DNA from: a virus
Taxonomy: Duplodnaviria; Heunggongvirae; Uroviricota; Caudoviricetes
IMG/VR virus record: IMGVR_UViG_2923296884_000001
DNA: 39,382 nucleotides
Reading direction: 5' to 3' (one strand)
Each line of letters begins with the position of its first letter. The stretch's first letter is position 1. A program made the translations under genes and the position numbers. Shown piece by piece: positions 16,230 to 34,446 of this stretch. The notes below the pieces were generated by a model. It searched no databases and was not told where the DNA came from. It saw nothing but the letters and a program-made list of their open reading frames with translations.

Positions 16230-18107
16230 TTATGCTGCGGGATTATTGATTTCCAGCACCAGGCTGCCGATATCGACGCCATACGTTGCATTTTTGGTAA
16301 TATCCGTCAGCGTCAGTGCATTCAGCCCCAGTGTCAGACTGTCTTTTATGACCTGGAATGCCGGGCCAACCAGTCCATTCAGTTTCGGAGTAACCGTGGC
16401 ACTGCCGGCGGTGAACACCAGCTCCAGCGTCTGCCAGTCGTTACTGTAATTCCCGAACTCGCCCAACTTTGTGTTTCCGGCTTTCTTGTGATGCATCAGA
16501 TTCAGTTTGCCGTCTGTGGTCTGGGTGAAGAACGACATCAGGAACGGGTTACCAGTCCCGGTCATCGCCACGACGTCAGGTAACGCTACATCGGTATACA
16601 GATAAATTCCCAGACCGAACTGGTTGTTGGTCAGTGCGCCTGACAGTCGAAACTTACAGCTCAGTCTGCCACCCCGTGTCAGCAGGGAGACTGCGTCATC
16701 CACCGGGCGCGTCAGGGACCAGGCTTTATTGCTCTGCTTGGCGATCTTAAATACACCATCTGACAACTGAATTCCGCCATTCTTAATGCTCCAGCCCTGC
16801 GCAGCAGCATCTCCGGCTGTCGGCAACAGGGAGATTGTGCGTACGGATGCATCTTCAGACGGCCCCGATGGCGTGTCGCCGCCGGGCGAGGGTTTGATTT
16901 CCGGTGCCTTACCACTGATGAAGGCTGAGGTGCGCCCGGCTGCGTTCAGAATAGCGGTTGCCATACGATCCGGAATAATGCTCCTGCGCGCCCATGAACT
17001 GAAATGTGTCGGGCGGTTTGATGATACCCAATTACCATTACTACGGGATTGCGCGCCGTAATAACCTGCATCAGCAATATCCGGGTCTTCTGCCGGTAAG
17101 TTGGTGGGCGTGTTGTTGCCGTTACCGTCGGTCATGAACGGCACAAAGAAAACGTTGTCGCTCTCCCTGTTTTTGTACGCGCCGTAGACGGAGTCATACT
17201 GTGTGCCGTATGTGTTTTTCCAGTAATACGTCGTGTCGCCACAAATCCACGGTACAACTGCAGCACTGCCGCCATGGCACTGCGCGTTAAATCCGGAAAG
17301 GTCAGTACGGAACTGCTTCAGCATGGCCGTGAACAGGTCCGGTTGCTGTGCGTAGGTGGCAGCGCTCATGTCAAATTCGCCCTGCATCCAGCACACCGCC
17401 AGCAACACATTTTTCGGGTTCTTCTGTAATGCCGCTTTGGTGCGTGCGATCAGGTCCTGATATAACGGTTTACCCACACCCCAGCGTGCCGAATCCTGGC
17501 TGGCCCCCGTGTCCGCACTGAATGTCCCCTCCGCGCCCTGGGTGAATGCCGAACCACCACGACAGCATGGTACCAGCAGGATCCCCGCGTTATTCGGGAT
17601 ATACGGAAGCAGTTTTTTGGCAATATGTAAGCCCTGGCCGACACAGCCGTACTGCCCTTTGCTCAGGTCTGCCTTCGGATGATTCAGTGCGCTCATATCC
17701 TGAACATCATGCAGGCAGTGGTCTGCCGGAATGATGTCGTTAAATGCGCATGCTTTACCACCGGGAGTCACTGTGTTGCGACGGGCCAGTTGCTTAATGC
17801 GTGGGTGGGGCGCATCGTAAGAATCCGGCAGCGGCATTCCCTCACCATATGACATGGCATTGGATTGACCAGCAAGTACCACCACGTAATACCACTCCGG
17901 CACGCTGCCGTGCTGGGGGGAATCAGGTGAGATGTCTGTAGTGCCATCGGCCACCATTGCCTGCATTAGATACCACGGGGTGCCGGGTTCGTAGGCAACC
18001 CGCGTCTCCCCCTGAAGATGCCACCCTTTCGCAAGATGTTCATTCACCTTTTGAGTCAGTTCAGCCTGTGTCATGGCTGTAATCAGTGCAAAGTTCTTAC
18101 TGGTCAT
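16230..18107 (-). CDS. SASA-domain carbohydrate esterase (sialate O-acetylesterase-like, NanS-p-like), 625 aa
   Basis: Contains VVVLAGQSNAMSYGEG (GQSN motif) and WMQGEFD, typical of the SASA esterase family, plus a ~300-aa C-terminal domain; start overlaps the o-spanin stop (ATGA). Confidence 0.75.
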   Translation of the reverse strand: MTSKNFALITAMTQAELTQKVNEHLAKGWHLQGETRVAYEPGTPWYLMQAMVADGTTDISPDSPQHGSVPEWYYVVVLAGQSNAMSYGEGMPLPDSYDAPHPRIKQLARRNTVTPGGKACAFNDIIPADHCLHDVQDMSALNHPKADLSKGQYGCVGQGLHIAKKLLPYIPNNAGILLVPCCRGGSAFTQGAEGTFSADTGASQDSARWGVGKPLYQDLIARTKAALQKNPKNVLLAVCWMQGEFDMSAATYAQQPDLFTAMLKQFRTDLSGFNAQCHGGSAAVVPWICGDTTYYWKNTYGTQYDSVYGAYKNRESDNVFFVPFMTDGNGNNTPTNLPAEDPDIADAGYYGAQSRSNGNWVSSNRPTHFSSWARRSIIPDRMATAILNAAGRTSAFISGKAPEIKPSPGGDTPSGPSEDASVRTISLLPTAGDAAAQGWSIKNGGIQLSDGVFKIAKQSNKAWSLTRPVDDAVSLLTRGGRLSCKFRLSGALTNNQFGLGIYLYTDVALPDVVAMTGTGNPFLMSFFTQTTDGKLNLMHHKKAGNTKLGEFGNYSNDWQTLELVFTAGSATVTPKLNGLVGPAFQVIKDSLTLGLNALTLTDITKNATYGVDIGSLVLEINNPAA

Positions 18108-25859: not shown

Positions 25860-25876
25860 TGGGGCTGTCCTTTTTA
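25848..25876. terminator. bidirectional rho-independent terminator between convergent Q and the 174-aa gene
   Basis: ACAGCCCC-gtgat-GGGGCTGT stem-loop with an A-run upstream and T-run downstream. Confidence 0.65.
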
Positions 25877-26398
25877 CCAGAGTTGAACCATTTTCTGGGT
25901 GCCGTCAGGCTTGAGATTATCAATTTCAGAGAGAACGTAATATTGAATGGCTTCACAAACGGTGGTGTAGGGTGAATTACCTTCTTTAAGTGGCACGATA
26001 TTATTATTAACGCGAACCTGTATTTCATCGTTATACATTGCGATCGAAACAGGCGTGTGCACGAACGCGACTTCGCCAGGTGTGTCGTCAACCACCGTTT
26101 CAATACTAAAAGTCAGTTTTCGCTCATCATTGCTGCCCCGTGCTTTGGGGGTAGCGGCAGGGATCTGGGATAAAGGCATTCTGCGAAATCCTTCGGCTGC
26201 TTCCAGTCCGCATGAAACGTAATGCTGGCGATTACCGTCGCTATCTGTCCAGGTCTGTGATGGCAGCTCCAGCGAGATTTCATAAGCATCAACAATGCCC
26301 TGGGCAAGGCGTACAAGCGGGGTCAGATCTTCATTGCGGCGAAAGCTCTCCTTTACCTGCTCCCGTTTTTCTCTTAACTGCTTGTAATTAATGACCAT
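25874..26398 (-). CDS. hypothetical protein (about 174 aa), orphan gene between Q and the early-operon terminator
   Basis: ORF 25874..26437 with start refined to the ATG about 26398 (MVINYKQLREK...) preceded by a GGAGG SD; lower GC than neighbours; no family recognised. Confidence 0.6.
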   Translation of the reverse strand: MVINYKQLREKREQVKESFRRNEDLTPLVRLAQGIVDAYEISLELPSQTWTDSDGNRQHYVSCGLEAAEGFRRMPLSQIPAATPKARGSNDERKLTFSIETVVDDTPGEVAFVHTPVSIAMYNDEIQVRVNNNIVPLKEGNSPYTTVCEAIQYYVLSEIDNLKPDGTQKMVQLW

Positions 26399-26495
26399 AA
26401 GACAGCCTCCATTGATTTCTTTGCTCGTATTTTGCACTTATGAAGTATGGTCGGCAAGGTGCCGTATCGCTGACGCGCTTCGCTTGTCTGCTGCT

Positions 26496-26524
26496 TCGCC
26501 GGGGCATAAAAAATTTATGCCCCG
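26496..26524. repeat. 29-bp perfect palindrome GCCGGGGCATAAA-aaa-TTTATGCCCCGGC
   Basis: Read directly from the sequence; lies in the ~500-bp noncoding stretch upstream of the 174-aa gene. Confidence 0.7.
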
Positions 26525-26930
26525 GCTCTCCAGCTCCTGTATCAATCAGATAATTTCACGACGCCTTCCAGTTTATCGCCACCATCGACGGTCAGACTCT
26601 TACGCAATTCCACCGCGTTGACTGCATGTTCTCGCTGCCTCAGTGCGATTTTGACGGCCTTACCTTTCACCCCATCAAATCAAAAGCCCTCACGCCTTTT
26701 TCATGCTCAGCGTGAGAAATATGGCCATTCTGTTGTGTCTCTGCGACATCGTTCAGGGAATGCTATTTACCCCCTGAAACGCGGGCTGTTCCCCCGTCAC
26801 CTGCGCGCAGAAAAAGCGCGTTTTTTTGTGCACGCACGGATCCTTGACGGATCCAGCCGCCATGCGGGCCGGAAGGGTAAAAAGTCGTTCAAAAAAATTG
26901 TGCAAATTTGTGCACTTTTGTGCAAACAAA

Positions 26931-26956
26931 AAGCGCCCCTGAGGCGCTTTAGTGTT
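26931..26956. terminator. terminator of the leftward early/accessory operon (bidirectional stem-loop)
   Basis: AAGCGCC-cctga-GGCGCTT flanked by A/T runs, about 30 bp after the last minus-strand gene; preceded by three TTGTGCA direct repeats (26899-26930). Confidence 0.6.
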
Positions 26957-26984
26957 TTATAGGTTGTGTATATTTGCTGGGTCC

Positions 26985-27248
26985 TTATCCTGCTGTGCTT
27001 TCAACTGATGAGGGGAACAAAATCTTTTCATCAAACCCTGCATTCATATCATGGACAGCAACACACCAATCCATTGACGAACGATTATCAAGAGCCTCCA
27101 TGATTTCATCCATGCGGCGTAGGTCATACAGGTAAATGCTTTTATCGCCAATGGTGTAAAAACCAATTTTTTTCGGTGATGGACAGCGATCAAGAACGTC
27201 CTGTAATTCGCTCAACCATGCTTGTTCTTTTTTTGTCAAAGTTGCCAT
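26985..27248 (-). CDS. hypothetical protein (87 aa)
   Basis: Start ATG at 27248 with strong SD GAAAGGAG; packed TGAtATG against the upstream gene. Confidence 0.6.
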   Translation of the reverse strand: MATLTKKEQAWLSELQDVLDRCPSPKKIGFYTIGDKSIYLYDLRRMDEIMEALDNRSSMDWCVAVHDMNAGFDEKILFPSSVESTAG

Positions 27249-27249
27249 A

Positions 27250-27690
27250 TCACTCTCCTTTCCCATGAAGCATAGCGGCGCGGCAGGCGTTCCATATTTC
27301 GGCAGCAATATAGCGCTCGCTATCGGTTAATTTGTACGTGGAAACATAGCCAGAGAGCATTTCTACGTTTTCCGGAGTTGCTTCTTCCGGCACTACCGGC
27401 GCTGGCAAGGCAGCGTGATAGTAGAGTGGCATAGTTTTGTACAGTGGTTCGCCAGGACTTCCGTCAGCCTGATTCCATTCTTCAACCCAGGCATCAACAA
27501 CCGCTTTGCTGGTTGATACATGTTCTTCTGAATCTACATTTTGTCCTGATATACAGAACATAACTGCCTCTGCTTCCAGCGATGCCAGAGCAATTTCATA
27601 AGCCCGACGCTCAATATTGTCTCGGACGTCCAGGCTGCCTATGCGCTCTTTGATTTCTTTAATCAGTTCTTTGTCGGTAAAAGTGGTCAT
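27250..27690 (-). CDS. hypothetical acidic protein (146 aa)
   Basis: Start ATG at 27690 (MTTFTDKEL...) with SD AAAGGAG. Confidence 0.6.
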   Translation of the reverse strand: MTTFTDKELIKEIKERIGSLDVRDNIERRAYEIALASLEAEAVMFCISGQNVDSEEHVSTSKAVVDAWVEEWNQADGSPGEPLYKTMPLYYHAALPAPVVPEEATPENVEMLSGYVSTYKLTDSERYIAAEIWNACRAAMLHGKGE

Positions 27691-27691
27691 A

Positions 27692-28006
27692 TCAATCTCC
27701 TTTGGTACCAATGTTTACAGCCTGGTAAGCCTCTTTGAGCACCCAGTCAACAGCGTCTTTCCATGCTCCGGTTTCGACTGGCGGATTCTCACGCTTTACC
27801 TGTTCATAGAAACGCACCGCTCTAACCAGTCCATCTGACGGTTTTGCCTGTAGTGCAGCCTGAGCTATGCGGTATGCCTGGAGCATACGGGCGTCGTTGA
27901 TATCCATTCCGAACGGAATTTCTGATGATTGTGACTCTGCATCTTCAAGCCTGGCAATTTCTTTACGTAAGAAGTATTTCAACTCTTGTTTCTGTTTTCT
28001 GTTCAT
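27692..28006 (-). CDS. hypothetical protein (104 aa)
   Basis: ATG at 28006 overlaps the upstream stop (ATGA). Confidence 0.6.
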
Positions 28007-28335
28007 GCGTTTTTTTCCTTTTTGTCTGTCACTTCTTTCCTGATAATTTCATTGCACAAATCCACGCACTCATTGCAGATGTAAACAGACGGTCCGGCAA
28101 TCACCTTTGTGACTTCGTACTGGGATTTATTGCAGAAGCTGCAATAAACCGTCTTCTCGCCTGAAGTCCATGTTTTGCTGGTTTCGCCAGACATCAGTTG
28201 TTTGAGGTCTTTTTCACGACGAAGAACTATCTGGCCACATTCAGCTATTTTTTGGATGTTGACATTTTCTTCTTTCGCCAGCGCTTCCATCCGCTCAATC
28301 AGTCGCTGCGCTTTTTCTCTGTCAATGTGTTGCAT
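28003..28335 (-). CDS. small protein with a C-terminal ClpX-type C4 zinc finger
   Basis: C-terminus [36 protein letters not shown] closely matches the ClpX N-terminal zinc-binding domain (CSFCGK...[15 protein letters not shown]); strong SD AAGGGGGA. Confidence 0.7.
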
Positions 28336-28398
28336 TGTGTCCCCCTTGTTTATGCTCCCGGGTTAAAGTCATCAGGGCGGATGCGCCCTGATGTTGTG

Positions 28399-28710
28399 TT
28401 ATTCGGGAAATAACGCCCGGATATTTCCGGCCATCTGACTGGTTATCTGTGCGGCTGATACTGGCTGTGACGCGGGGCGTTCTGTCCTGGTTTGTGTCAT
28501 TGATAACGCCTCATCATCAGCCCATGCAGCCAGTCGGTAAGCCTCTGCCGGATTCATTTTCAGTAGTGCCAGCCCGGCCAGAAAAGCCACGCGTTGACCA
28601 CTTTTGCGGGCTTCTGGTGTAAGGCTGTCCAGCCAGGCGCATGCTTCGCCTTCGTTCTTGACGGCGGCGGGCTTCAGATAGAAACTTATCCGTCTGGTTG
28701 GTGTCGTCAT
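28399..28710 (-). CDS. parR: ParR-like partition adaptor (103 aa)
   Basis: ATG at 28710 four nt after the parM stop, SD AAGGAG; N-terminus ISFYLKPAAVKN...VAFLAGLALL resembles plasmid R1 ParR (IAFKLNPDVN...AALTAGLALY). Confidence 0.7.
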   Translation of the reverse strand: MTTPTRRISFYLKPAAVKNEGEACAWLDSLTPEARKSGQRVAFLAGLALLKMNPAEAYRLAAWADDEALSMTQTRTERPASQPVSAAQITSQMAGNIRALFPE

Positions 28711-28714
28711 TGGT

Positions 28715-29674
28715 TTACTCCTTGTCCATTGCGTACAGCCCATTAACCAGAGCAAACTGTGGCACCCCGTCCGCGATGAAAGTCGCATTAACTCCGCAGG
28801 CTTCGCGGATAGCGGGTGCCACAATCTCTGCCCCGCCACCGACAACCATCACCCGCCCGTAACCCGAAAAACCCGCCAGCGCGCGGATCACGCGTTGTTT
28901 CAGTGTTTCTTCCTTTTCACGAATAACCGCCATCAGGCTGGCGTAATGCGCGTCATTGTGGATGTGCTGGCGCAGCCAGGCTTCATCATGGCGATGTTCG
29001 ATAATGGTATTGGCGATGTGGTGACTGGTACGCATACCGTTAGTGGCCATCACCGACAGTACGGCATCGGCCATCAGGGAAACGCCTACGTGTGGATCGC
29101 AAAACACCTGGCTGATACCTGCCAGTTGTCCCTGAACCTTTGCCACATCCAGCGTGGTTCCGCCTAAATCCACAATCAGCAGGGATTCAAACGGACTCAT
29201 GTCAGCCAGTGCCTTAAAGCCAGCCGGAATGGATTCAGGCATAACCCGCACGTTACGGATAGTGAATGCTTCGCCGTTCTGGTACTCCACCGGGCGCATA
29301 ACGTTCGCTTTTTTGCGGTTGATGTTGGCCATGTCCGGCTGTGCGTTTGTGTCGAAATACTCGCTCAGTGGCAGGGTGACAACCACATCCACCTCCTGTG
29401 GCGTGATGCCTGATTTGACCAGCGCGTGATGAATGGCGATTACATTCACATCGCTGTACTGGTATTGCGTGTCGGTCGTCTGGACAAAGCGATCGCTAAC
29501 CGGATCAAAACCATAGCGCACGCCATCAAGCATGTAGTTCGCGGGCTGCATGCCACCGAACGGCGCAGACCATTCCGACTTGAAGCTGTTCGGGCTGATG
29601 GCGTTGCGGCGTTCGCCATTCTCAGTCCATGCCAGCTTGATGTTGGTGGAGCCGTCGTCGATACAAATTTTCAT
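28715..29674 (-). CDS. parM: ParM/StbA actin-like segregation ATPase
   Basis: 319 aa; MKICIDDGSTNIKLAW... with full-length similarity to plasmid R1 ParM (phosphate-1 motif DDGSTNIKL, VMPESIPAG, LIVDLGGTTLD, VVGGGAE). Confidence 0.9.
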   Translation of the reverse strand: MKICIDDGSTNIKLAWTENGERRNAISPNSFKSEWSAPFGGMQPANYMLDGVRYGFDPVSDRFVQTTDTQYQYSDVNVIAIHHALVKSGITPQEVDVVVTLPLSEYFDTNAQPDMANINRKKANVMRPVEYQNGEAFTIRNVRVMPESIPAGFKALADMSPFESLLIVDLGGTTLDVAKVQGQLAGISQVFCDPHVGVSLMADAVLSVMATNGMRTSHHIANTIIEHRHDEAWLRQHIHNDAHYASLMAVIREKEETLKQRVIRALAGFSGYGRVMVVGGGAEIVAPAIREACGVNATFIADGVPQFALVNGLYAMDKE

Positions 29675-29705
29675 GTCGCTTTTCCTTATGTTGATTAATT
29701 AATCG

Positions 29706-29816
29706 TTTACGGGATTCTGAAATCCCGTTTTTGCCTGTTTTGTGTGCGCTTCATATATCGCGGCGCGTTTTTTGCTCATTTACGGGATTTGTGAATCCCG
29801 TTTCTGTCTGTTTTTT
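29706..29816. repeat. two ~39-bp direct repeats, each with an ACGGGATT-nnnn-AATCCCGT palindrome; parC-like centromere or replication origin candidate
   Basis: Copies at 29706-29744 (in the A-parM gap) and 29779-29816 (within the last codons of A), 73 bp apart. Confidence 0.7.
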
Positions 29817-32573
29817 GTTTCCACTGGTCAGGCCACCCCGCAGCAGGTCTGCTTTGCGGCGGGCACGTTCAGTGGTTTCACTGATTCTCTGTGCGTGCTC
29901 TGCGTCGCGGATGGCGCGCAGCATGTCAGAAAGCACGGTAACGGGGGGGGTCATGGTGTTCTGGTCCTGCTGAAGTGTGGATGCCAGACGTGCGGCGGCT
30001 TCGGGGTCTGATGCCCCCAGCTGTTCCAGATAGCTGGCGACCGGGTTATGGCGGATCTCCGTGCTGCTTACGCCGTGATTACGGCTCAGGCGCTGCCAGA
30101 GCTGCGTGATTCGGCTGTCCGGGCGGGTATCCGGTTTGCGTACAATTTCAAATCCCTGCGGTGCAATGATGCTGCCGTCAACGTACAGGCTGCCGCCCCG
30201 TAACAGGTGCTGCATCTGCTGTTCACCGATATGCAGGCCGAGAGATTCGGCAGATTCCCGCCATTCTTTAGCGAGTAATTCGTGGTTATCAGGCAAAGGC
30301 CGCTGCTGTTTGCGGCTCTGTGTCCAGCTCTGCATTTCATCACTGCTGTTTTTTGCCTGTTTGTCACGCAGCGAACGCATCAGCGCCCGGCGTTCGTGCC
30401 GTTTCAGTGAGCGCATCCATTCGTTCACGTCAACGCCGTCAGGAAGCTGCGGCCACGGTGCTGGCCGTTCTTCCGGCTGTTCTGTCCCGTTGTTGTCCGT
30501 TTCCTGTACACGGGGACAGTTATTGCCACGAGTCCAAGGGGCGGCAGGGCCGCCCTGAAGGTCAAAACCATTTTCGCGGGCGCTGTCTTCCGCTTCCGGT
30601 TTACGTCTTACCAGCTTCCAGTTATCCGGATGCGTGCACACACGGGAGGATTCCCCGATGAGTGGTGACCAGATCCCGTAAATCTGTACGCTCTGTTCGC
30701 CGTAATCGTTCAGCTCATCTGCGAGGTCGTAGGCGGTGCGAATCAGGTAGTCTTTGCGTGGAACAAGTACGCCGCCCTGTTTTTCAATGTAGGTGGCAAA
30801 ACACCCGGCATCGGCGGCAGCGAGTACCGCATCCATTGCGTCATCTTTCAGTCGTTGCGGGCCTTCCGGGTTGCGTGCCATCTGGCTGGCAAGGCGGCGC
30901 AGTTCACGCCACACCTGACGGGAGGGGATGCCAAAGAACTGGAACTGGCGGACCCGATGAAGGCGCGCCCAGCCGATGGCGCGCTCCACACTCTCGGCCA
31001 TTGATTTTCCGGTTTCGTGGTCAACGCGTGGCTTGCCCGTTTTCGGGTCGATGCCATCCACGGCGCGGCTGTCCAGGTTCTTTCCGATGTAGGTCGCGAT
31101 ATAGCTGGTTGGTGTGCCTTTTGAGCCGTCGACATACTCCGCCTTAAAGCGCGGAGTAATATCATTGCCCAGCTCGTGGCGGTCTTCCTGAATGGCAATA
31201 TCGCGGGTATGGGACACAATGGTGTCGATTTCTTCCGGATGAGCAAAGACCATCATATGCCAGTGCACGGTGCCGTCATGGTGAGGCTCCACCGTGCGGA
31301 TGCCATACCAGCGAAGACCGTCGCGGTTCAGTTTTTTGCGGACCGCCGCAAAAAACGTGTTAACCAGGTAATAGCTGGAGTCGCGCATGGTGGCCCCGTT
31401 CCATTTGGGATTCGGATGACCGTTCTCTGTTGTGGCGTGGTATTTTGACGGGCAGGTGACAGTCAGAAACACCGCTTTGTCGCCACGGGCTTCGGCCAGA
31501 AGTTCCAGCCCCTTCATGGTGGCCATCATTTCTGCCTTACGGTGAACCGGGTTACTTACTCCCGCGTAATACACTGTCTCGAGATCAATCGTGAACCCGT
31601 CTTCGTTTTCCAGCATGAAACTTTTCAGGAAATCGCGTGTTTTCTCGCGCTGTGCGCGAAACTCGCTTAACGCGTCCTGGCTCAGATAGGGTGATGTTTT
31701 TCTGGAAACCAGACAGGCGGCGCGGAGTTGTTCTTCTCTCCACTCGCAACGTAACAGCCACAGTTTGCGTTTCCACCATTCCGCACAGGTCAGGCGAAGG
31801 ACTGCGCCCGGCAGCAGCTCCGTGTCCGGTTCGTTCCTCCGGTTTTTATCTGTTGTCAGTGCGTCATAATGTGGAGGCATGATGTGCAGGTGTAACGCCA
31901 TGCGGGCCAGCATCTGATACGCCTTCAGCGTTACATCCATGGTCAGCTCGCCATCTCTGGCACCAAAGCCATCACAGAGTTTTTCGAAGGTGCTGCTGAA
32001 CATCGCCGCCGTCATGGTGGCCAGCGTCTGTATCTGGTGTTTGTTGAGCTGCGGCAGGTAAAGCAAATCGTCCAGGCGTTCGCGTCCGGCAAGGGAGCGA
32101 TAACCCGGTGTCAGCCAGTGTCCGTCAGTGCGATCCAGACGTTCGAATATTTTGCGCAGGGTTCCGCGTGCATAGCGTTCCGCCTGCCAGCTCTTTTTGC
32201 CTTTCCGGCGATCGGCTTCCTGTTTTTTGCGCAGGAAGGAGAGGTGGCGAATAAGCGGATCGCGCAGATAGGACGGCAGCAGGCGCAGCGAGGCCATGGC
32301 TTCATCCACCGCGCCACGTGCCTGTTTTCTGGCTTCTCTGGCCAGTGTGATGGTTTTGTCCTGTTTTTCCTGTGCGTCCAGGCTTTTATTAATCAGGTTG
32401 CCCAGCGGCGTGGCGGAGAACGCCGCATCAGCCATTTCCTGGCGGCGCTCGTTCTCTGCCCGGTAGGCATCCAGCCAGGAGGAAAGCTCGGATTCAGGAG
32501 CGGGGATTCCCGTTCCTTCACGACCCACTGCGTGGCGCGGTTGTTGCCAGTCCCTGATGTACTCTGCCGTCAT
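29751..32573 (-). CDS. A: replication initiation protein A (rolling-circle endonuclease)
   Basis: 940-aa ORF with P2 gpA-type features; longer than P2 gpA (761 aa). Confidence 0.92.
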   Translation of the reverse strand: MTAEYIRDWQQPRHAVGREGTGIPAPESELSSWLDAYRAENERRQEMADAAFSATPLGNLINKSLDAQEKQDKTITLAREARKQARGAVDEAMASLRLLPSYLRDPLIRHLSFLRKKQEADRRKGKKSWQAERYARGTLRKIFERLDRTDGHWLTPGYRSLAGRERLDDLLYLPQLNKHQIQTLATMTAAMFSSTFEKLCDGFGARDGELTMDVTLKAYQMLARMALHLHIMPPHYDALTTDKNRRNEPDTELLPGAVLRLTCAEWWKRKLWLLRCEWREEQLRAACLVSRKTSPYLSQDALSEFRAQREKTRDFLKSFMLENEDGFTIDLETVYYAGVSNPVHRKAEMMATMKGLELLAEARGDKAVFLTVTCPSKYHATTENGHPNPKWNGATMRDSSYYLVNTFFAAVRKKLNRDGLRWYGIRTVEPHHDGTVHWHMMVFAHPEEIDTIVSHTRDIAIQEDRHELGNDITPRFKAEYVDGSKGTPTSYIATYIGKNLDSRAVDGIDPKTGKPRVDHETGKSMAESVERAIGWARLHRVRQFQFFGIPSRQVWRELRRLASQMARNPEGPQRLKDDAMDAVLAAADAGCFATYIEKQGGVLVPRKDYLIRTAYDLADELNDYGEQSVQIYGIWSPLIGESSRVCTHPDNWKLVRRKPEAEDSARENGFDLQGGPAAPWTRGNNCPRVQETDNNGTEQPEERPAPWPQLPDGVDVNEWMRSLKRHERRALMRSLRDKQAKNSSDEMQSWTQSRKQQRPLPDNHELLAKEWRESAESLGLHIGEQQMQHLLRGGSLYVDGSIIAPQGFEIVRKPDTRPDSRITQLWQRLSRNHGVSSTEIRHNPVASYLEQLGASDPEAAARLASTLQQDQNTMTPPVTVLSDMLRAIRDAEHAQRISETTERARRKADLLRGGLTSGNKKQTETGFTNPVNEQKTRRDI

Positions 32574-32579
32574 AGTGAT

Positions 32580-32945
32580 TTACTTCGTCATGCCATTCAG
32601 GGTGTCGCGGCAGACTGTAGCCAGCCGCTGAATTTCCAGCACGGTGTCTTCTGTGTCGGCATGGCGATGTGTGATGCGGATGCTGTCGGCAATCACATCG
32701 ACGATTGCAGAGGATGGGCGCTGGTAAATGCCAATAACGGACGGGGTGCCACCTTCAATGCGGTAAAGCCTGTAATTTTCCTCATGGCTGTCAATCATGT
32801 AGCGACCATCAATAACAATCTTTCCGTCAGCGAGCTGCGGTACAGGCAGGGATTTCAGGTACATGTCATAACGATCACGCACGCGAGCGGCAAGATCACG
32901 TTCTGTGTTGAGCAGGTATTCAAGAAAGTCGTTGGCGAGAATCAT
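32580..32945 (-). CDS. hypothetical early protein (121 aa)
   Basis: ATG at 32945 with SD AAGAGGA; ends 6 nt before the A start. Confidence 0.6.
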   Translation of the reverse strand: MILANDFLEYLLNTERDLAARVRDRYDMYLKSLPVPQLADGKIVIDGRYMIDSHEENYRLYRIEGGTPSVIGIYQRPSSAIVDVIADSIRITHRHADTEDTVLEIQRLATVCRDTLNGMTK

Positions 32946-33017
32946 TGCGGCAATCCTCTTGCTACAGATGTGCGAAGGCCTCCCGCCGCAAGGTGCAGGA
33001 AAGGCCTGGAACAGGAA

Positions 33018-33248
33018 TTAATGGAGTTTGTTTTGCTGCTGGATGAGCTGCTGAAGCTCGCGCAGATCATCCGCCAGATAGCTGAAAACAGAGGCGGAAT
33101 AAATGTTTGATAGTGCGTGGCTGCGCTCATGCAGCATATTGATGTGCATGATTTGCGCGACGCGTGATGCGCGGAAAAGTCTGCGGTTGATTTCAGTCTG
33201 GATGTGACGACGCTCCGCGATAGCGCGGTGCTGTTTGCGGTTTGCCAT
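33018..33248 (-). CDS. hypothetical small basic protein (76 aa)
   Basis: ATG at 33248 with SD GAGAGG. Confidence 0.5.
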   Translation of the reverse strand: MANRKQHRAIAERRHIQTEINRRLFRASRVAQIMHINMLHERSHALSNIYSASVFSYLADDLRELQQLIQQQNKLH

Positions 33249-33426
33249 GATGTGGCCTCTCTGTTAGTTAGTTTTGAAAACTCACCATCCAGAGGTTCCA
33301 AGCTCGGGGTGGTGAGACGTACAGGGTTGGAACTACCGGCTAACAGAGGACCCGGCCCAGCTGATGCTGGCCCTGTACGCCCCACCATAATTCTGACGCG
33401 AAAAAGACGTGGCGATACGGCACGCA

Positions 33427-33448
33427 CAAAAAAACCGCTGGCGCGGTT
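33427..33448 (-). terminator. rho-independent terminator candidate (minus strand) between the SPFH module and the replication module
   Basis: Minus-strand AACCGC-gcca-GCGGTT followed by TTTTTTTG. Confidence 0.45.
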
Positions 33449-33615
33449 GTGCGCTCTGTTAGTCTGCGGGGTTCCAATCCCGGCACCCGTTTTATGAGGT
33501 GCAGCGGAAATGTAACCTGACTGATTGCGGCATGGCAAGCGGTTTTTTTGTGAGAACGGCATACTAAAAAATCCTGATACTGCTCCGGCCAGCGGTTTTC
33601 ACTGGCCGGGTTTAA

Positions 33616-34446
33616 TTACTTCACCGGAACAAACGGAACAGCGGTGTTACTGGTCATGTATTGCGGTAGCGTGCCGTTCCATTTGTTAATCGCTTCCAGC
33701 TCCATAACGCCGGGATTCTGGCGCAGAGCTTCACCGCGTAAACGAATGGCGTCGGCTTCAGCCTGGGCTTTTGTGCGAATGGCATCGGCTTGTCCGGCAG
33801 CTTCTGCGCGCAGCATGTTGGCTTCAGCTTCGCGTTGCTTGACTTCCTGTTCACGTTGCAGGGTTTTCTGGTTTGCCGTGACTTTGGCATTAATGCTGTC
33901 GATAACGGTTGGCGGGTATTCCGGCTTACCCACATAAGAGAGGCTCATTACCTGAATGCCGATAGGTGTCATTTCTGCCTGAATGTCTTTAAGTGCTGAA
34001 TCCAGCAGTTCAGACTTGCCACCGTCGATAAATTTATCGGTGGTCATTTTGCTGGCCAGTCGGTTGAGTGCGTCGGCGATCTTCTGGCGCAGGTCAGTGT
34101 CGGTAATGTCGTCCACGCCTTTGCGGTAGGTCTGAAACACCGTGGTAACTTTGGATGGATCAACTTTGTAGGCCACGCCGATGTGATAGCCGATGGTTGT
34201 GCCGTCACTCATCTGGAAGTTGAACGGCTCATCGTAAGTCTTCATTTGTTTGAAAGTCGGGAAGATGTAAACCTCTGTATTCCAGCCTGTCCAGTAGCGG
34301 CCAACGCCAACTACTTCGCCGACGCCTTTGTCGTCGCCCAGTTTGTTGACTTTGATTCCCACATTACCTGGCTCAACGCGATCGCAACCAACCAGCAGGA
34401 TGGCGGCAAAAAGCGGGAGAATCTGAAAGAGTTTGAATTTCTTCAT
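33616..34446 (-). CDS. SPFH/band-7 domain lipoprotein (276 aa)
   Basis: Signal peptide with lipobox LLVGC, then a region reading as an SPFH/band-7 domain, then a coiled-coil Ala/Glu/Gln-rich C-terminus; SD AAGGAA; overlaps the upstream gene (ATGA). Confidence 0.85.
   Translation of the reverse strand: MKKFKLFQILPLFAAILLVGCDRVEPGNVGIKVNKLGDDKGVGEVVGVGRYWTGWNTEVYIFPTFKQMKTYDEPFNFQMSDGTTIGYHIGVAYKVDPSKVTTVFQTYRKGVDDITDTDLRQKIADALNRLASKMTTDKFIDGGKSELLDSALKDIQAEMTPIGIQVMSLSYVGKPEYPPTVIDSINAKVTANQKTLQREQEVKQREAEANMLRAEAAGQADAIRTKAQAEADAIRLRGEALRQNPGVMELEAINKWNGTLPQYMTSNTAVPFVPVK

What the first reader, a model, noticed from the sequence alone, without database searches (positions are those of the whole stretch)
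28399..29816. Plasmid-type ParM/ParR partition cassette with upstream hairpin repeats, next to replication gene A
A full-length ParM/StbA actin-like ATPase (strong similarity to plasmid R1 ParM) is followed 4 nt later by a ParR-like gene and preceded by two 39-bp repeats in the position where parC sits in type II partition loci. Canonical P2 has nothing like this between gene A and the cos-proximal region. It suggests the element can be maintained or segregated as an episome, or that a plasmid module has been captured in the hotspot.
Basis: partly seen in the sequence, partly recalled or inferred. Interest (0 to 1): 0.65.

Follow-up and report, generated by a model that had tools for sequence, protein, structure and literature searches.

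The report
ParMRC partition cassette in P88-like prophage
An integrated P2-like (P88-type) E. coli prophage carries an intact, strongly conserved actin-type DNA-segregation cassette (parC-parM-parR) right after its replication gene; databases already annotate it, about a quarter of complete E. coli genomes have it, and what it does for an integrating phage has never been tested.

Summary
On the minus strand the order is a P2-type replication endonuclease gene (29751-32573), two 43-nt repeats that each hold a perfect 20-bp palindrome, parM (28715-29674), a 4-nt gap, then parR (28399-28710). ParM matches the Pfam ParM domains and solved R1 ParM structures. ParR matches Pfam Plasmid_stab_B and, as a profile, pB171 ParR.

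The "captured plasmid module" reading is not supported. The window is a P88-like (Xuanwuvirus) prophage. The cassette is in 1310 of 5426 complete E. coli genomes, almost always chromosomal, and in nearly every genome with this replication gene type. The closest true plasmid ParM is only about 52% identical. parM is under strong purifying selection (pN/pS 0.055). Diverged P2-like prophages of Hafnia, Plesiomonas, Serratia and Enterobacter carry parMR in the same slot. A YGGG-N10-CCCR site pair, 72-73 bp apart and at a fixed distance from parM, recurs in three lineages.

My best reading is a working type II partition machine, co-expressed with the replication gene, that acts on extrachromosomal phage circles after infection or induction. 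The working precedents are SXT/R391 SrpMRC and CGP3 AlpAC. It is a new member of a known kind, already annotated, with function untested. Interest is moderate.

The parts
29751..32573 (-). Replication endonuclease gene (P2 gene A family, 940 aa). It lies directly upstream of the cassette, and its last codons contain the distal parC repeat.
   Evidence: Pfam Phage_GPA 1.3e-130; PHROG phrog_91 'nicking at origin of replication' 1.9e-274; PGAP 'replication endonuclease'.
29776..29818 (-). Distal 43-nt repeat of the candidate centromere parC. It holds the palindrome ACGGGATT-TGTG-AATCCCGT at 29782-29801 and lies inside the 3' end of the replication gene.
   Evidence: A YGGG-N10-CCCR site sits at -126 from the parM ATG, matched by sites at -129 in Hafnia and -132 in Plesiomonas.
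29703..29745 (-). Proximal 43-nt repeat of the candidate parC. It holds the palindrome ACGGGATT-CTGA-AATCCCGT at 29709-29728 and is intergenic.
   Evidence: The site sits at -53 from the parM ATG, matched at -56 and -60 in Hafnia and Plesiomonas. Among 45 unique P88-type upstream sequences the arms are conserved while the loop and the inter-repeat spacer vary.
29688..29704 (-). Conserved ATTAATCAA box between the proximal palindrome and the parM Shine-Dalgarno sequence. Its role is unknown; it is not a consensus sigma-70 promoter.
   Evidence: The same box is present in the window, Hafnia L007 and Plesiomonas L009 upstream regions. No promoter-like site was found in 28200-30000.
28715..29674 (-). 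parM, an actin-like segregation ATPase of 319 aa.
   Evidence: Pfam StbA_N 2.7e-82 plus ParM_N 1.3e-68. R1 ParM structures at E 8.5e-93. Nucleotide-binding motifs DDGST (6-10), E147, DLGGTTLD (169-176) and GGGA (279-282) are invariant in alignment A1. The ORF is intact at 319 aa in 85 of 85 relatives. pN/pS is 0.055.
28399..28710 (-). parR, a ribbon-helix-helix-type centromere-binding adaptor of 103 aa, starting 4 nt after the parM stop.
   Evidence: Pfam Plasmid_stab_B 2.5e-24. A ParR profile hits pB171 ParR/StbB 2jd3 at 2.1e-16. The N-terminus RRISFYLKP is nearly invariant, the linker (codons 65-92) is hypervariable, and the C-terminus NI(R/Q)A(L/F)FP(E/D) is conserved.
28370..28393 (.). GC-rich 10-bp-stem hairpin just after parR. 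A T-run follows it only on the plus strand, so it is not a clear terminator for the par transcript.
   Evidence: (I25).
28003..28335 (-). Neighbouring gene in the same predicted transcription unit: a 110-aa protein made of little more than a ClpX-type C4 zinc finger. It is not part of the partition system proper.
   Evidence: Pfam zf-C4_ClpX 6.8e-18; PGAP annotation.
26930..26950 (.). Strong bidirectional terminator-like hairpin. It is the first convincing minus-strand terminator downstream of the replication gene and parMR.
   Evidence: 9-bp stem with 5 GC pairs, followed by TTGTTTGC on the minus strand.

Best explanation
This is a complete, working type II (ParMRC) DNA-segregation module. 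It is an inherited core part of the replication region of P88-like (Xuanwuvirus) phages and related P2-like phages, not recent plasmid cargo.

Proposed mechanism:
1. ParR dimers bind, through their N-terminal beta-strand, to the two 20-bp palindromes upstream of parM. The palindromes are 73 bp apart, about seven helical turns, so they face the same side of the DNA. Together they form the candidate centromere parC.
2. The conserved C-terminal tail of ParR captures the ends of ParM filaments.
3. ATP-driven ParM polymerisation between two ParR-parC complexes pushes the DNA molecules apart.
4. There is no recognisable promoter or minus-strand terminator between the replication gene and parM, so parMR is most likely transcribed together with the replication gene. 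It would then be on after infection or induction, when the phage genome is a free, replicating circle, and idle in the integrated prophage.

The likely benefit is that phage genome copies are spread through the cell and into both daughter cells before integration or lysis. That would mean more stable establishment of lysogeny, less segregational loss of excised copies, or more efficient replication and packaging.

Shown: protein identities, intactness, purifying selection, lineage-wide conservation, and position-conserved sites. Inferred: ParR binding to the palindromes, co-transcription with the replication gene, and action on the extrachromosomal form.
For: - ParM and ParR are bona fide family members with intact motifs.
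- parM is intact in 85 of 85 P88-type loci, with pN/pS 0.055.
- Within ParR, exactly the parts a working adaptor needs are conserved: N-terminal DNA-binding region pN/pS 0.21, C-terminal tail 0.11, linker 0.62.
- The cassette is in 1310 of 5426 complete E. coli genomes, against 1326 with this replication gene type.
- Its G+C equals that of the replication gene.
- The nearest true plasmid ParM is 52.6% identical.
- The gene order replication gene, parM, parR, portal is the same in Hafnia, Plesiomonas, Serratia and Enterobacter P2-like prophages whose ParM is 54-63% identical.
- YGGG-N10-CCCR pairs sit at -126/-53, -129/-56 and -132/-60 from the parM ATG in three lineages. The upstream coding sequences there are not homologous, and the rest of each locus shows only background counts.
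- The palindrome occurs only twice in the window.
- Both ParR allele types share the same palindromes and the same N-terminus.
- No sigma-70-like promoter and no Ogr-type TGT-N12-ACA site was found at parC. No convincing minus-strand terminator lies between the replication gene and 26950.
- Precedents: srpMRC of SXT/R391 ICEs stabilises the excised form and is expressed only with the excision operon (PMC4489591). AlpAC of prophage CGP3 ties circular phage DNA to actin-like filaments and is needed for efficient replication (PMC4446434).
- P88 is mitomycin-inducible and phiSM forms integrated lysogens (PMC5285337 and PMC6456863).
Against: - There are only two candidate ParR sites. R1 parC has ten 11-bp iterons (established knowledge). 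The closest plasmid and phage-plasmid relatives checked here have arrays of short AT-rich repeats. Whether two sites can act as a centromere is untested.
- The promoter and terminator evidence comes from consensus scans only. In P2, genes of the region after gene A are expressed from the prophage (established knowledge), so expression in lysogens is not excluded.
- P2-type phages replicate by a rolling-circle mode and lyse the cell, so the need for partition is not obvious.
- ParMRC needs at least two copies to push apart.
- No experimental data on this cassette was found in the searchable literature.
Confidence: 0.6

Rival explanations
1. Facultative plasmid prophage. P88-like phages can persist long-term as low-copy circular episomes, for example when the attachment site is missing or occupied, and parMRC is their plasmid-maintenance system. 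That would make them unrecognised phage-plasmids.
For: One PLSDB record, NZ_CP148288.1 (34,461 bp, circular, non-mobilizable), is a whole P88-like genome deposited as a plasmid. The Plesiomonas relative sits on a 32,167-bp contig that ends about 150 bp beyond the integrase gene, so it may be a stand-alone phage-sized contig. The phage-plasmid D6 uses a related StbA/StbB pair.
Against: 1457 of 1459 places in complete E. coli genomes are chromosomal. An integrase and Cox are present. The other PLSDB hits are large replicons or mis-assigned chromosome pieces. No phage-sized plasmid record carries the Serratia- or Enterobacter-type ParM. The replication protein is a P2-type nicking endonuclease, not a plasmid-type initiator. 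The circular record could simply be excised or induced phage DNA, and I could not check whether the same strain also has an integrated copy.
Confidence: 0.12
2. Function from the integrated prophage. parMR is expressed in lysogens and serves competition or regulation rather than segregation of the phage's own DNA. Examples would be centromere-based incompatibility against incoming relatives or plasmids, or ParR acting mainly as a transcriptional regulator.
For: The interval after gene A in P2 holds lysogen-expressed genes such as old and tin (established knowledge). ParR is strikingly polymorphic, with several allele types and a mosaic breakpoint about 18 codons into the gene. Up to 3 copies occur per genome without obvious conflict.
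Against: The ParR DNA-reading N-terminus and the palindromes are the same across allele types, so specificity is not diversifying. The variable part is mainly the linker. ParM, which a pure regulator would not need, is the most strongly constrained component, pN/pS 0.055. No promoter-like site was found at the cassette. The nearest plasmid ParM and ParR are too diverged (about 52% for ParM) to expect a shared centromere.
Confidence: 0.1
3. The hairpin repeats are not the centromere. They could be transcription or RNA elements (terminators of antisense transcripts, RNA-stability hairpins) or elements tied to the replication gene. ParR would then bind elsewhere, or the system would have lost its centromere.
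For: On the plus (antisense) strand both hairpins are followed by T-runs and score as terminator-like. The sense RNA of the region folds better than shuffles, z = -3.8. There are only two sites. The distal one lies in the replication gene's coding sequence.
Against: No plus-strand gene reads into this region; all genes from 25874 to 33562 are on the minus strand. The sites keep their distance to parM, not to the replication gene, in Hafnia, where an unrelated 167-aa ORF lies upstream, and in Plesiomonas, where the replication protein's C-terminal tail is not homologous. Substitutions in the arms show no consistent RNA-compensatory pattern. Rfam finds no RNA family there. The Serratia/Enterobacter subclade has a different ParR N-terminus (NRK instead of TRR) and a different repeat type at the same place.
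Confidence: 0.15
4. Recently captured plasmid module or inert cargo in the variable region after gene A.
For: The location corresponds to the P2 hotspot between gene A and the packaging genes. Homologues are overwhelmingly plasmid-borne, with more than 5000 plasmid records.
Against: It is core to the lineage. The same slot is used in four other genera at 54-63% ParM identity. The best plasmid match is 52.6% identical. G+C matches the replication gene, while the genes further downstream are more AT-rich. Purifying selection is strong.
Confidence: 0.03

Closest known systems
ParMRC (StbAB) type II partition system of plasmid R1 and IncFII plasmids; pB171 ParR
   Same: Same gene order: centromere, parM, parR. 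ParM matches solved R1 ParM structures at E 8.5e-93 across its full length, with all nucleotide-binding motifs. ParR is in the same Pfam family, and its profile hits pB171 ParR 2jd3 at 2.1e-16. The C-terminal ...N..LFP tail is shared with IncFII and D6 ParR.
   Different: It resides in an integrating P2-like phage, directly after a rolling-circle-type replication gene, not on a low-copy plasmid. The candidate centromere is two 20-bp palindromes 73 bp apart, one of them inside a coding sequence, rather than an array of short direct iterons (R1: ten 11-bp iterons, established knowledge; IncFII and D6 arrays seen). No promoter was detected within it. ParR is shorter and lacks the third-helix segment that other ParRs have.
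SrpMRC of SXT/R391 integrative conjugative elements (Carraro et al. 2015, PMC4489591)
   Same: An actin-type partition system carried as a strictly conserved feature of an element that normally sits integrated in the chromosome. It is active on the transient excised, replicating form and is expressed only with the excision and replication genes. This is the best functional analogy.
   Different: The element type differs (conjugative element versus tailed phage). SrpM and SrpR are only distantly related to R1 ParM and ParR, whereas the P88-type proteins are clear ParM and ParR family members. SrpMRC has experimental support; this cassette has none.
AlpAC/alpS of Corynebacterium glutamicum prophage CGP3 (Donovan et al. 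2015, PMC4446434; PMC5539076)
   Same: [quoted passage not shown] It is an early induced gene and links circular phage DNA to filaments, and it is needed for efficient phage DNA replication.
   Different: The host is Gram-positive and the actin-like protein family and adaptor are different. CGP3 is a large cryptic prophage. I made no sequence comparison between AlpC/AlpA and the proteins here.
StbA/StbB partition pair of the P1-like phage-plasmid D6
   Same: A phage-borne ParM homologue, 47.8% identical, with a downstream StbB. The D6 GenBank record itself notes 'similar to phage P88 StbA protein'.
   Different: D6 is an extrachromosomal plasmid prophage with plasmid-type maintenance. Its upstream region has repeated TCTCA-type iterons. 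P88-like phages integrate.

Membership tests
Type II (ParMRC) partition system | Actin-fold ParM ATPase with intact nucleotide-binding and hydrolysis motifs | tested here: met
   Pfam StbA_N 2.7e-82 plus ParM C-terminal domain 1.3e-68, both far above cutoff. R1 ParM structures at E 8.5e-93 over residues 2-316. DDGST, E147, DLGGTTLD and GGGA are invariant in A1.
Type II (ParMRC) partition system | Small ParR adaptor gene immediately downstream of parM, with an N-terminal ribbon-helix-helix-type DNA-binding domain | tested here: met
   There is a 4-nt gap between the genes. Pfam Plasmid_stab_B 2.5e-24 against a cutoff of 25 bits. Profile A3 hits pB171 ParR (2jd3) at 2.1e-16. The fold itself was not modelled.
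Type II (ParMRC) partition system | ParR C-terminal peptide that binds ParM filament ends | tested here: inconclusive
   A C-terminal motif N-I/A-x-x-L/F-F-P is conserved across phage, IncFII and D6 ParRs and is under purifying selection, pN/pS 0.11. Binding to ParM cannot be tested with these tools.
Type II (ParMRC) partition system | Centromere parC: multiple ParR-binding repeats upstream of parM that overlap the par promoter | tested here: inconclusive
   Two 20-bp palindromes lie upstream of parM, position-conserved in three lineages. There are only two sites, they are not an iteron array like those of relatives, and no sigma-70-like promoter was found. ParR binding is untested.
Type II (ParMRC) partition system | Carried by, and stabilising, a low-copy extrachromosomal replicon | tested here: not met
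   For location: 1457 of 1459 E. coli places are chromosomal prophages. Stabilising activity is not testable here. This lowers the claim 'plasmid partition locus' but not the claim 'works like ParMRC'.
Phage-plasmids (P1, D6, N15, SSU5-like) | Prophage maintained extrachromosomally with plasmid-type replication and partition functions, and no dependence on integration | tested here: not met
   An integrase and Cox are present and the prophage is integrated next to dmsA. The replication protein is the P2 GPA type. Only one phage-sized circular record exists among 72,556 plasmids.
P2-type accessory ('moron') genes of the variable region after gene A | Variable presence among close relatives, atypical composition, own promoter, expression from the prophage | tested here: not met
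   The cassette is present in about 99% of E. coli genomes with this replication gene type. Its G+C is 0.54-0.57, like the replication gene. No promoter-like site was found. Expression state was not tested.
Xuanwuvirus / P88-like phages (Peduoviridae) | Nucleotide-level similarity to phage P88 across the region and P2-type structural gene order | tested here: met
   The region is 98.1% identical to P88 over 1601 nt, and 99.2% to PhiR44_2. A P2-family capsid, terminase, portal, tail, Cox and integrase are annotated in the identical chromosome region.

The most novel reading that the evidence does not exclude
P88-like phages, resident in roughly a quarter of sequenced E. coli, are facultative episomes. 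With their core ParMRC system they could persist and be inherited as low-copy circular plasmids, as a carrier or pseudolysogenic state or where integration fails. That would make a whole P2-like lineage an unrecognised kind of integrative phage-plasmid hybrid with a rolling-circle-type replication protein. A related version is that ParM filaments organise the replication and packaging of a small temperate phage, a cytoskeletal role so far documented mainly for CGP3 and for jumbo phages.
Probability: 0.15. Interest if true: 0.7.

Novelty: new member of a known kind. Interest (0 to 1): 0.4.

Why it matters
Partition systems are regarded as plasmid hallmarks and as "very rare in phages" (PMC10879196). 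A 2025 study treats chromosome-encoded ParMs as a new curiosity and does not mention phage or prophage (PMC12270681).

Here a close relative of the textbook R1 ParM sits, intact and under strong selection, in an integrating phage lineage found in about 24% of complete E. coli genomes. If it acts on free phage circles, then:
- segregation of the extrachromosomal stage would be a selected step in the life cycle of a common temperate phage;
- many "chromosomal ParMs" in Enterobacteria would be explained;
- automatic use of ParM and ParR as plasmid or phage-plasmid markers would need caution.

The system is easy to test genetically, because P88 and phiSM are culturable and lysogenise E. coli K-12.

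Tried and rejected
- Coexisting integrated copy. I tried to decide whether the circular "plasmid" record NZ_CP148288.1 coexists with an integrated copy in the same strain. An attP-junction query and a strain-specific 2.5-kb query against the E. coli genomes did not help: circular junctions are split by the tool, and that strain is not in the collection. Dead end.
- More relatives. The genome-contig scan with ParM gave only 3 near-identical loci. A second IMG/VR scan seeded with the diverged ParMs returned only P88-type loci again. The diverged examples therefore rest on four contigs found through the protein search.
- Database misses. phmmer of ParR alone against PDB found nothing; a profile was needed. 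NCBIfam gave no above-cutoff family for ParM or ParR.
- Promoters at parC. The sigma-70 scan found none, and a regex for the Ogr-type TGT-N12-ACA late-promoter element found none.
- RNA-structure reading of the hairpins. The fold z-score of -3.8 simply reflects the palindromes. Arm substitutions include some G-U-compatible changes on the sense strand and one only on the antisense strand, so there is no consistent signal. Rfam has no hit in the cassette. Rejected as the primary explanation.
- Single phage-specific ParM clade. An NJ tree groups all phage-borne ParMs together. But the Serratia- and Enterobacter-type proteins are about 60% identical to IncFII plasmid ParMs, as close as they are to the P88 type. 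One ancient acquisition versus two is unresolved, and the tree has no support values.
- Literature. I found no functional study of this cassette, only passing annotations.
Full report
**1. What is in the sequence**

All features lie on the minus strand.
- A 940-aa replication endonuclease gene occupies 29751-32573 (Pfam Phage_GPA 1.3e-130).
- After a 76-nt gap comes parM at 28715-29674 (319 aa).
- Four nucleotides later comes parR at 28399-28710 (103 aa). Searches show this; the longer ORF listed for parR is a mechanical TTG extension.
- Upstream of parM are two 43-nt direct repeats, 29703-29745 and 29776-29818, 81% identical and 73 bp apart.
- Each repeat contains a perfect palindrome ACGGGATT-N4-AATCCCGT. 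Even with 3 mismatches allowed, this palindrome occurs nowhere else in the 39-kb window (0.14 expected).
- The distal repeat lies within the last codons of the replication gene.

**2. Protein identities**

- ParM matches both Pfam ParM domains end to end (2.7e-82 and 1.3e-68) and the solved R1 ParM structures (E 8.5e-93, residues 2-316).
- The phosphate-binding, catalytic and adenosine motifs (DDGST, E147, DLGGTTLD, GGGA) are invariant in an alignment with relatives down to 54% identity.
- ParR matches Pfam Plasmid_stab_B (2.5e-24).
- ParR alone finds nothing in PDB. A profile of it with seven relatives hits pB171 ParR/StbB 2jd3 at 2.1e-16.
- PHROGs already lists both proteins as "partition protein" families, and PGAP annotates them as ParM and "plasmid partitioning/stability family protein".

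**3. What the element is**

- The region is 98-99% identical to Escherichia phages P88 and PhiR44_2, to Xuanwuvirus P884B11 and to Citrobacter phage phiSM.
- It is 100% identical to the chromosome of E. coli U15A. There it lies in a P2-type prophage with a P2-family capsid, terminase, portal, tail genes, Cox, a repressor-like HTH protein and an integrase next to dmsA.
- P88 is mitomycin-inducible (PMC5285337).
- phiSM is spontaneously released and forms integrated lysogens in K-12 (PMC6456863).

**4. Core feature or captured cargo?**

- The cassette is in 1310 of 5426 complete E. coli genomes. Of 1459 places, 1457 are chromosomal.
- The replication gene of this type is in 1326 genomes at 80% coverage or more. 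The two therefore travel together almost without exception.
- tblastn of ParM against 50,697 phage records finds only P88-like phages (95.6-99.7% identical) and the phage-plasmid D6 (47.8%). P2, 186 and the other classical relatives lack it.
- Among 72,556 plasmids the best genuine plasmid ParM is 52.6% identical. The few near-identical "plasmid" hits are large replicons, mis-assigned chromosome pieces, a 26.8-kb linear Shigella record, and one 34.5-kb circular record that is a whole P88-like genome.
- G+C of parMR (0.54-0.57) equals that of the replication gene, while the genes further downstream drop to 0.46.
- In the large protein database, the intermediates between about 95% and about 52% identity are from Hafnia (62%), Plesiomonas (63%), Serratia (58%) and Enterobacter (54%). 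Every one I looked up has the order replication gene, parM, parR, then portal/terminase, in a P2-like prophage.
- A 49%-identical Dickeya protein is instead in a conjugative element.
- An NJ tree groups the phage-borne ParMs together. The Serratia- and Enterobacter-type proteins are nevertheless as close to IncFII plasmid ParMs (about 60%) as to the P88 type, so one ancient acquisition versus two is open.

Either way this is not a recent capture.

**5. Selection**

Data come from 85 P88-type loci (IMG/VR, GTDB genomes, a PLSDB record and the window).
- parM is a full 319-aa ORF in all 85, and parR is full length in 82.
- Pairwise pN/pS is 0.055 for parM.
- ParR is far more polymorphic, with several allele types and a homology breakpoint about 18 codons into the gene.
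- The variation is structured. The N-terminal RRISFYLKP is nearly invariant, the linker is hypervariable (codons 65-92, pN/pS 0.62), and the C-terminal tail is conserved (0.11).
- This is the pattern expected of a working adaptor: a DNA-reading strand, a flexible linker and a ParM-binding tail. The same N- and C-terminal motifs align with IncFII and D6 ParR.

**6. The candidate centromere**

- The motif YGGG-N10-CCCR occurs at -126 and -53 from the parM ATG in the window, at -129 and -56 in Hafnia, and at -132 and -60 in Plesiomonas. Spacing is 73, 73 and 72 bp. Elsewhere in these 13-39-kb sequences it occurs only at background frequency.
- The coding sequences that overlap the distal site are not homologous in the three lineages. 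The sites therefore follow parM, not the replication gene.
- Among 45 unique P88-type upstream sequences, the palindrome arms and the A-rich flanks are conserved while the loops and the spacer between repeats vary.
- Both ParR allele types keep the same palindromes.
- The Serratia/Enterobacter subclade has ParR starting NRKISFYL instead of TRRISFYL. It has a different element at the same place: 14-20-nt inverted arms 26-28 nt apart.
- The closest plasmid (IncFII) and phage-plasmid (D6) relatives have arrays of short AT-rich direct repeats. That resembles the R1 arrangement of ten 11-bp iterons (established knowledge).

So the repeats are very probably the cis site of this par system, but with an unusual two-palindrome architecture. 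Binding by ParR is inferred, not shown.

**7. When is it expressed?**

- Consensus scans find no sigma-70-like promoter between 28200 and 30000 and no Ogr-type late-promoter dyad.
- The hairpins are terminator-like only on the antisense strand, into which no gene reads.
- The first convincing minus-strand terminator after the replication gene is at 26950-26930.
- Upstream, Rfam finds a C4 antisense RNA and isrK. The best early promoter candidate is at 37994-37965 near cox.

The simplest reading is one transcription unit: replication gene, parM, parR, the ClpX-zinc-finger gene and three more small ORFs, switched on with replication. This rests on pattern scans only.

**8. Mechanism and rivals**

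Best-supported (confidence 0.6): a functional ParMRC machine that acts on free, replicating phage circles after infection or induction, and is idle when integrated. Two experimentally studied precedents show that this logic exists.
- srpMRC of SXT/R391 ICEs is strictly conserved, expressed only with the excision genes, and stabilises the excised form (PMC4489591).
- AlpAC of prophage CGP3 is an early-induced actin-like protein plus adaptor that ties circular phage DNA to filaments and is required for efficient replication (PMC4446434).

Rivals:
- a true facultative plasmid lifestyle (0.12), supported only by one circular record and one phage-sized contig;
- a function expressed from the integrated prophage, such as incompatibility or regulation (0.10);
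- the repeats are something other than parC (0.15, a rival to one step of the model);
- recent capture or inert cargo (0.03).

**9. Known or new?**

- The genes are annotated in RefSeq and PHROGs.
- The D6 GenBank record mentions the "P88 StbA protein".
- I found no functional study.
- A 2025 paper on chromosome-encoded ParMs does not mention phage or prophage. [quoted passage not shown]

I class it as a new member of a known kind, with an atypical centromere and context. Interest is 0.4: real, widespread and testable, but annotated, with clear precedents, and not mechanistically surprising.

Noticed in passing
window 28003-28335 (-): Directly after parR, in the same predicted transcription unit, lies a 110-aa protein that is essentially only a ClpX-type C4 zinc finger (Pfam zf-C4_ClpX 6.8e-18; NCBIfam ClpX N-terminus 1e-13). 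A free-standing copy of the ClpX substrate/adaptor-binding domain in a phage could interfere with host ClpXP. This is speculation.
   Followed up: partly
window 33305-33392 (-) and 33428-33502 (-): Rfam finds a C4 antisense RNA (78.5 bits) and an isrK Hfq-binding RNA (72.4 bits) upstream of the replication operon, next to what PGAP calls an 'ash family' pseudogene. The 206-aa ORF 32942-33562 from the mechanical ORF list overlaps them and is probably not a gene. This may be an RNA-based immunity or anti-termination switch controlling the replication gene and parMR.
   Followed up: no
window 28399-28656 (-), compared with loci L013-L092: parR is mosaic. In many relatives nucleotide homology stops about 18 codons into parR, and at least two allele families exist (103-aa 'LTPEARK' type and 104-aa 'ASERSRAQ' type) with a hypervariable linker. 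parM and the palindromes stay nearly identical.
   Followed up: partly
L002 (NZ_CP148288.1, whole record): A 34,461-bp circular 'plasmid' in PLSDB is a complete P88-like phage genome, running from the integrase to ogr, hok and a methyltransferase. Several late genes are unannotated, perhaps because of frameshifts. I could not determine whether it is a stable episome or excised phage DNA.
   Followed up: partly
L009 (Plesiomonas shigelloides WEKF01000002.1): The contig carrying the 63%-identical parMR phage is only 32,167 bp long and ends about 150 bp beyond the integrase gene. It is therefore a phage-sized stand-alone contig and could be extrachromosomal.
   Followed up: no
L005 (NZ_JBQPOM010000071.1, 'Vagococcus sp. 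WN89Y'): A contig labelled as a Gram-positive Vagococcus holds a P88-like region 98% identical to the E. coli one. This is most likely contamination or a mislabelled assembly.
   Followed up: no
L012 (Dickeya CM001975.1, 6001-7373): A parM-parR pair (ParM 49% identical) sits in a chromosomal conjugative element next to TraG_N and TraU genes and an integrase. This is another integrated element with a type II partition system.
   Followed up: no
window 16230-18107 (-) and 33616-34446 (-): Two non-P2 genes sit inside the prophage: a 625-aa DUF6645 protein between the lysis and tail genes, and an SPFH-domain protein in the early region. Both are annotated by PGAP in the identical chromosome. Their functions are unknown.
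   Followed up: no
window 26930-26950: A strong bidirectional terminator-like hairpin (AAAGCGCC...GGCGCTTT) marks the end of the leftward early unit that contains the replication gene and parMR.
   Followed up: no
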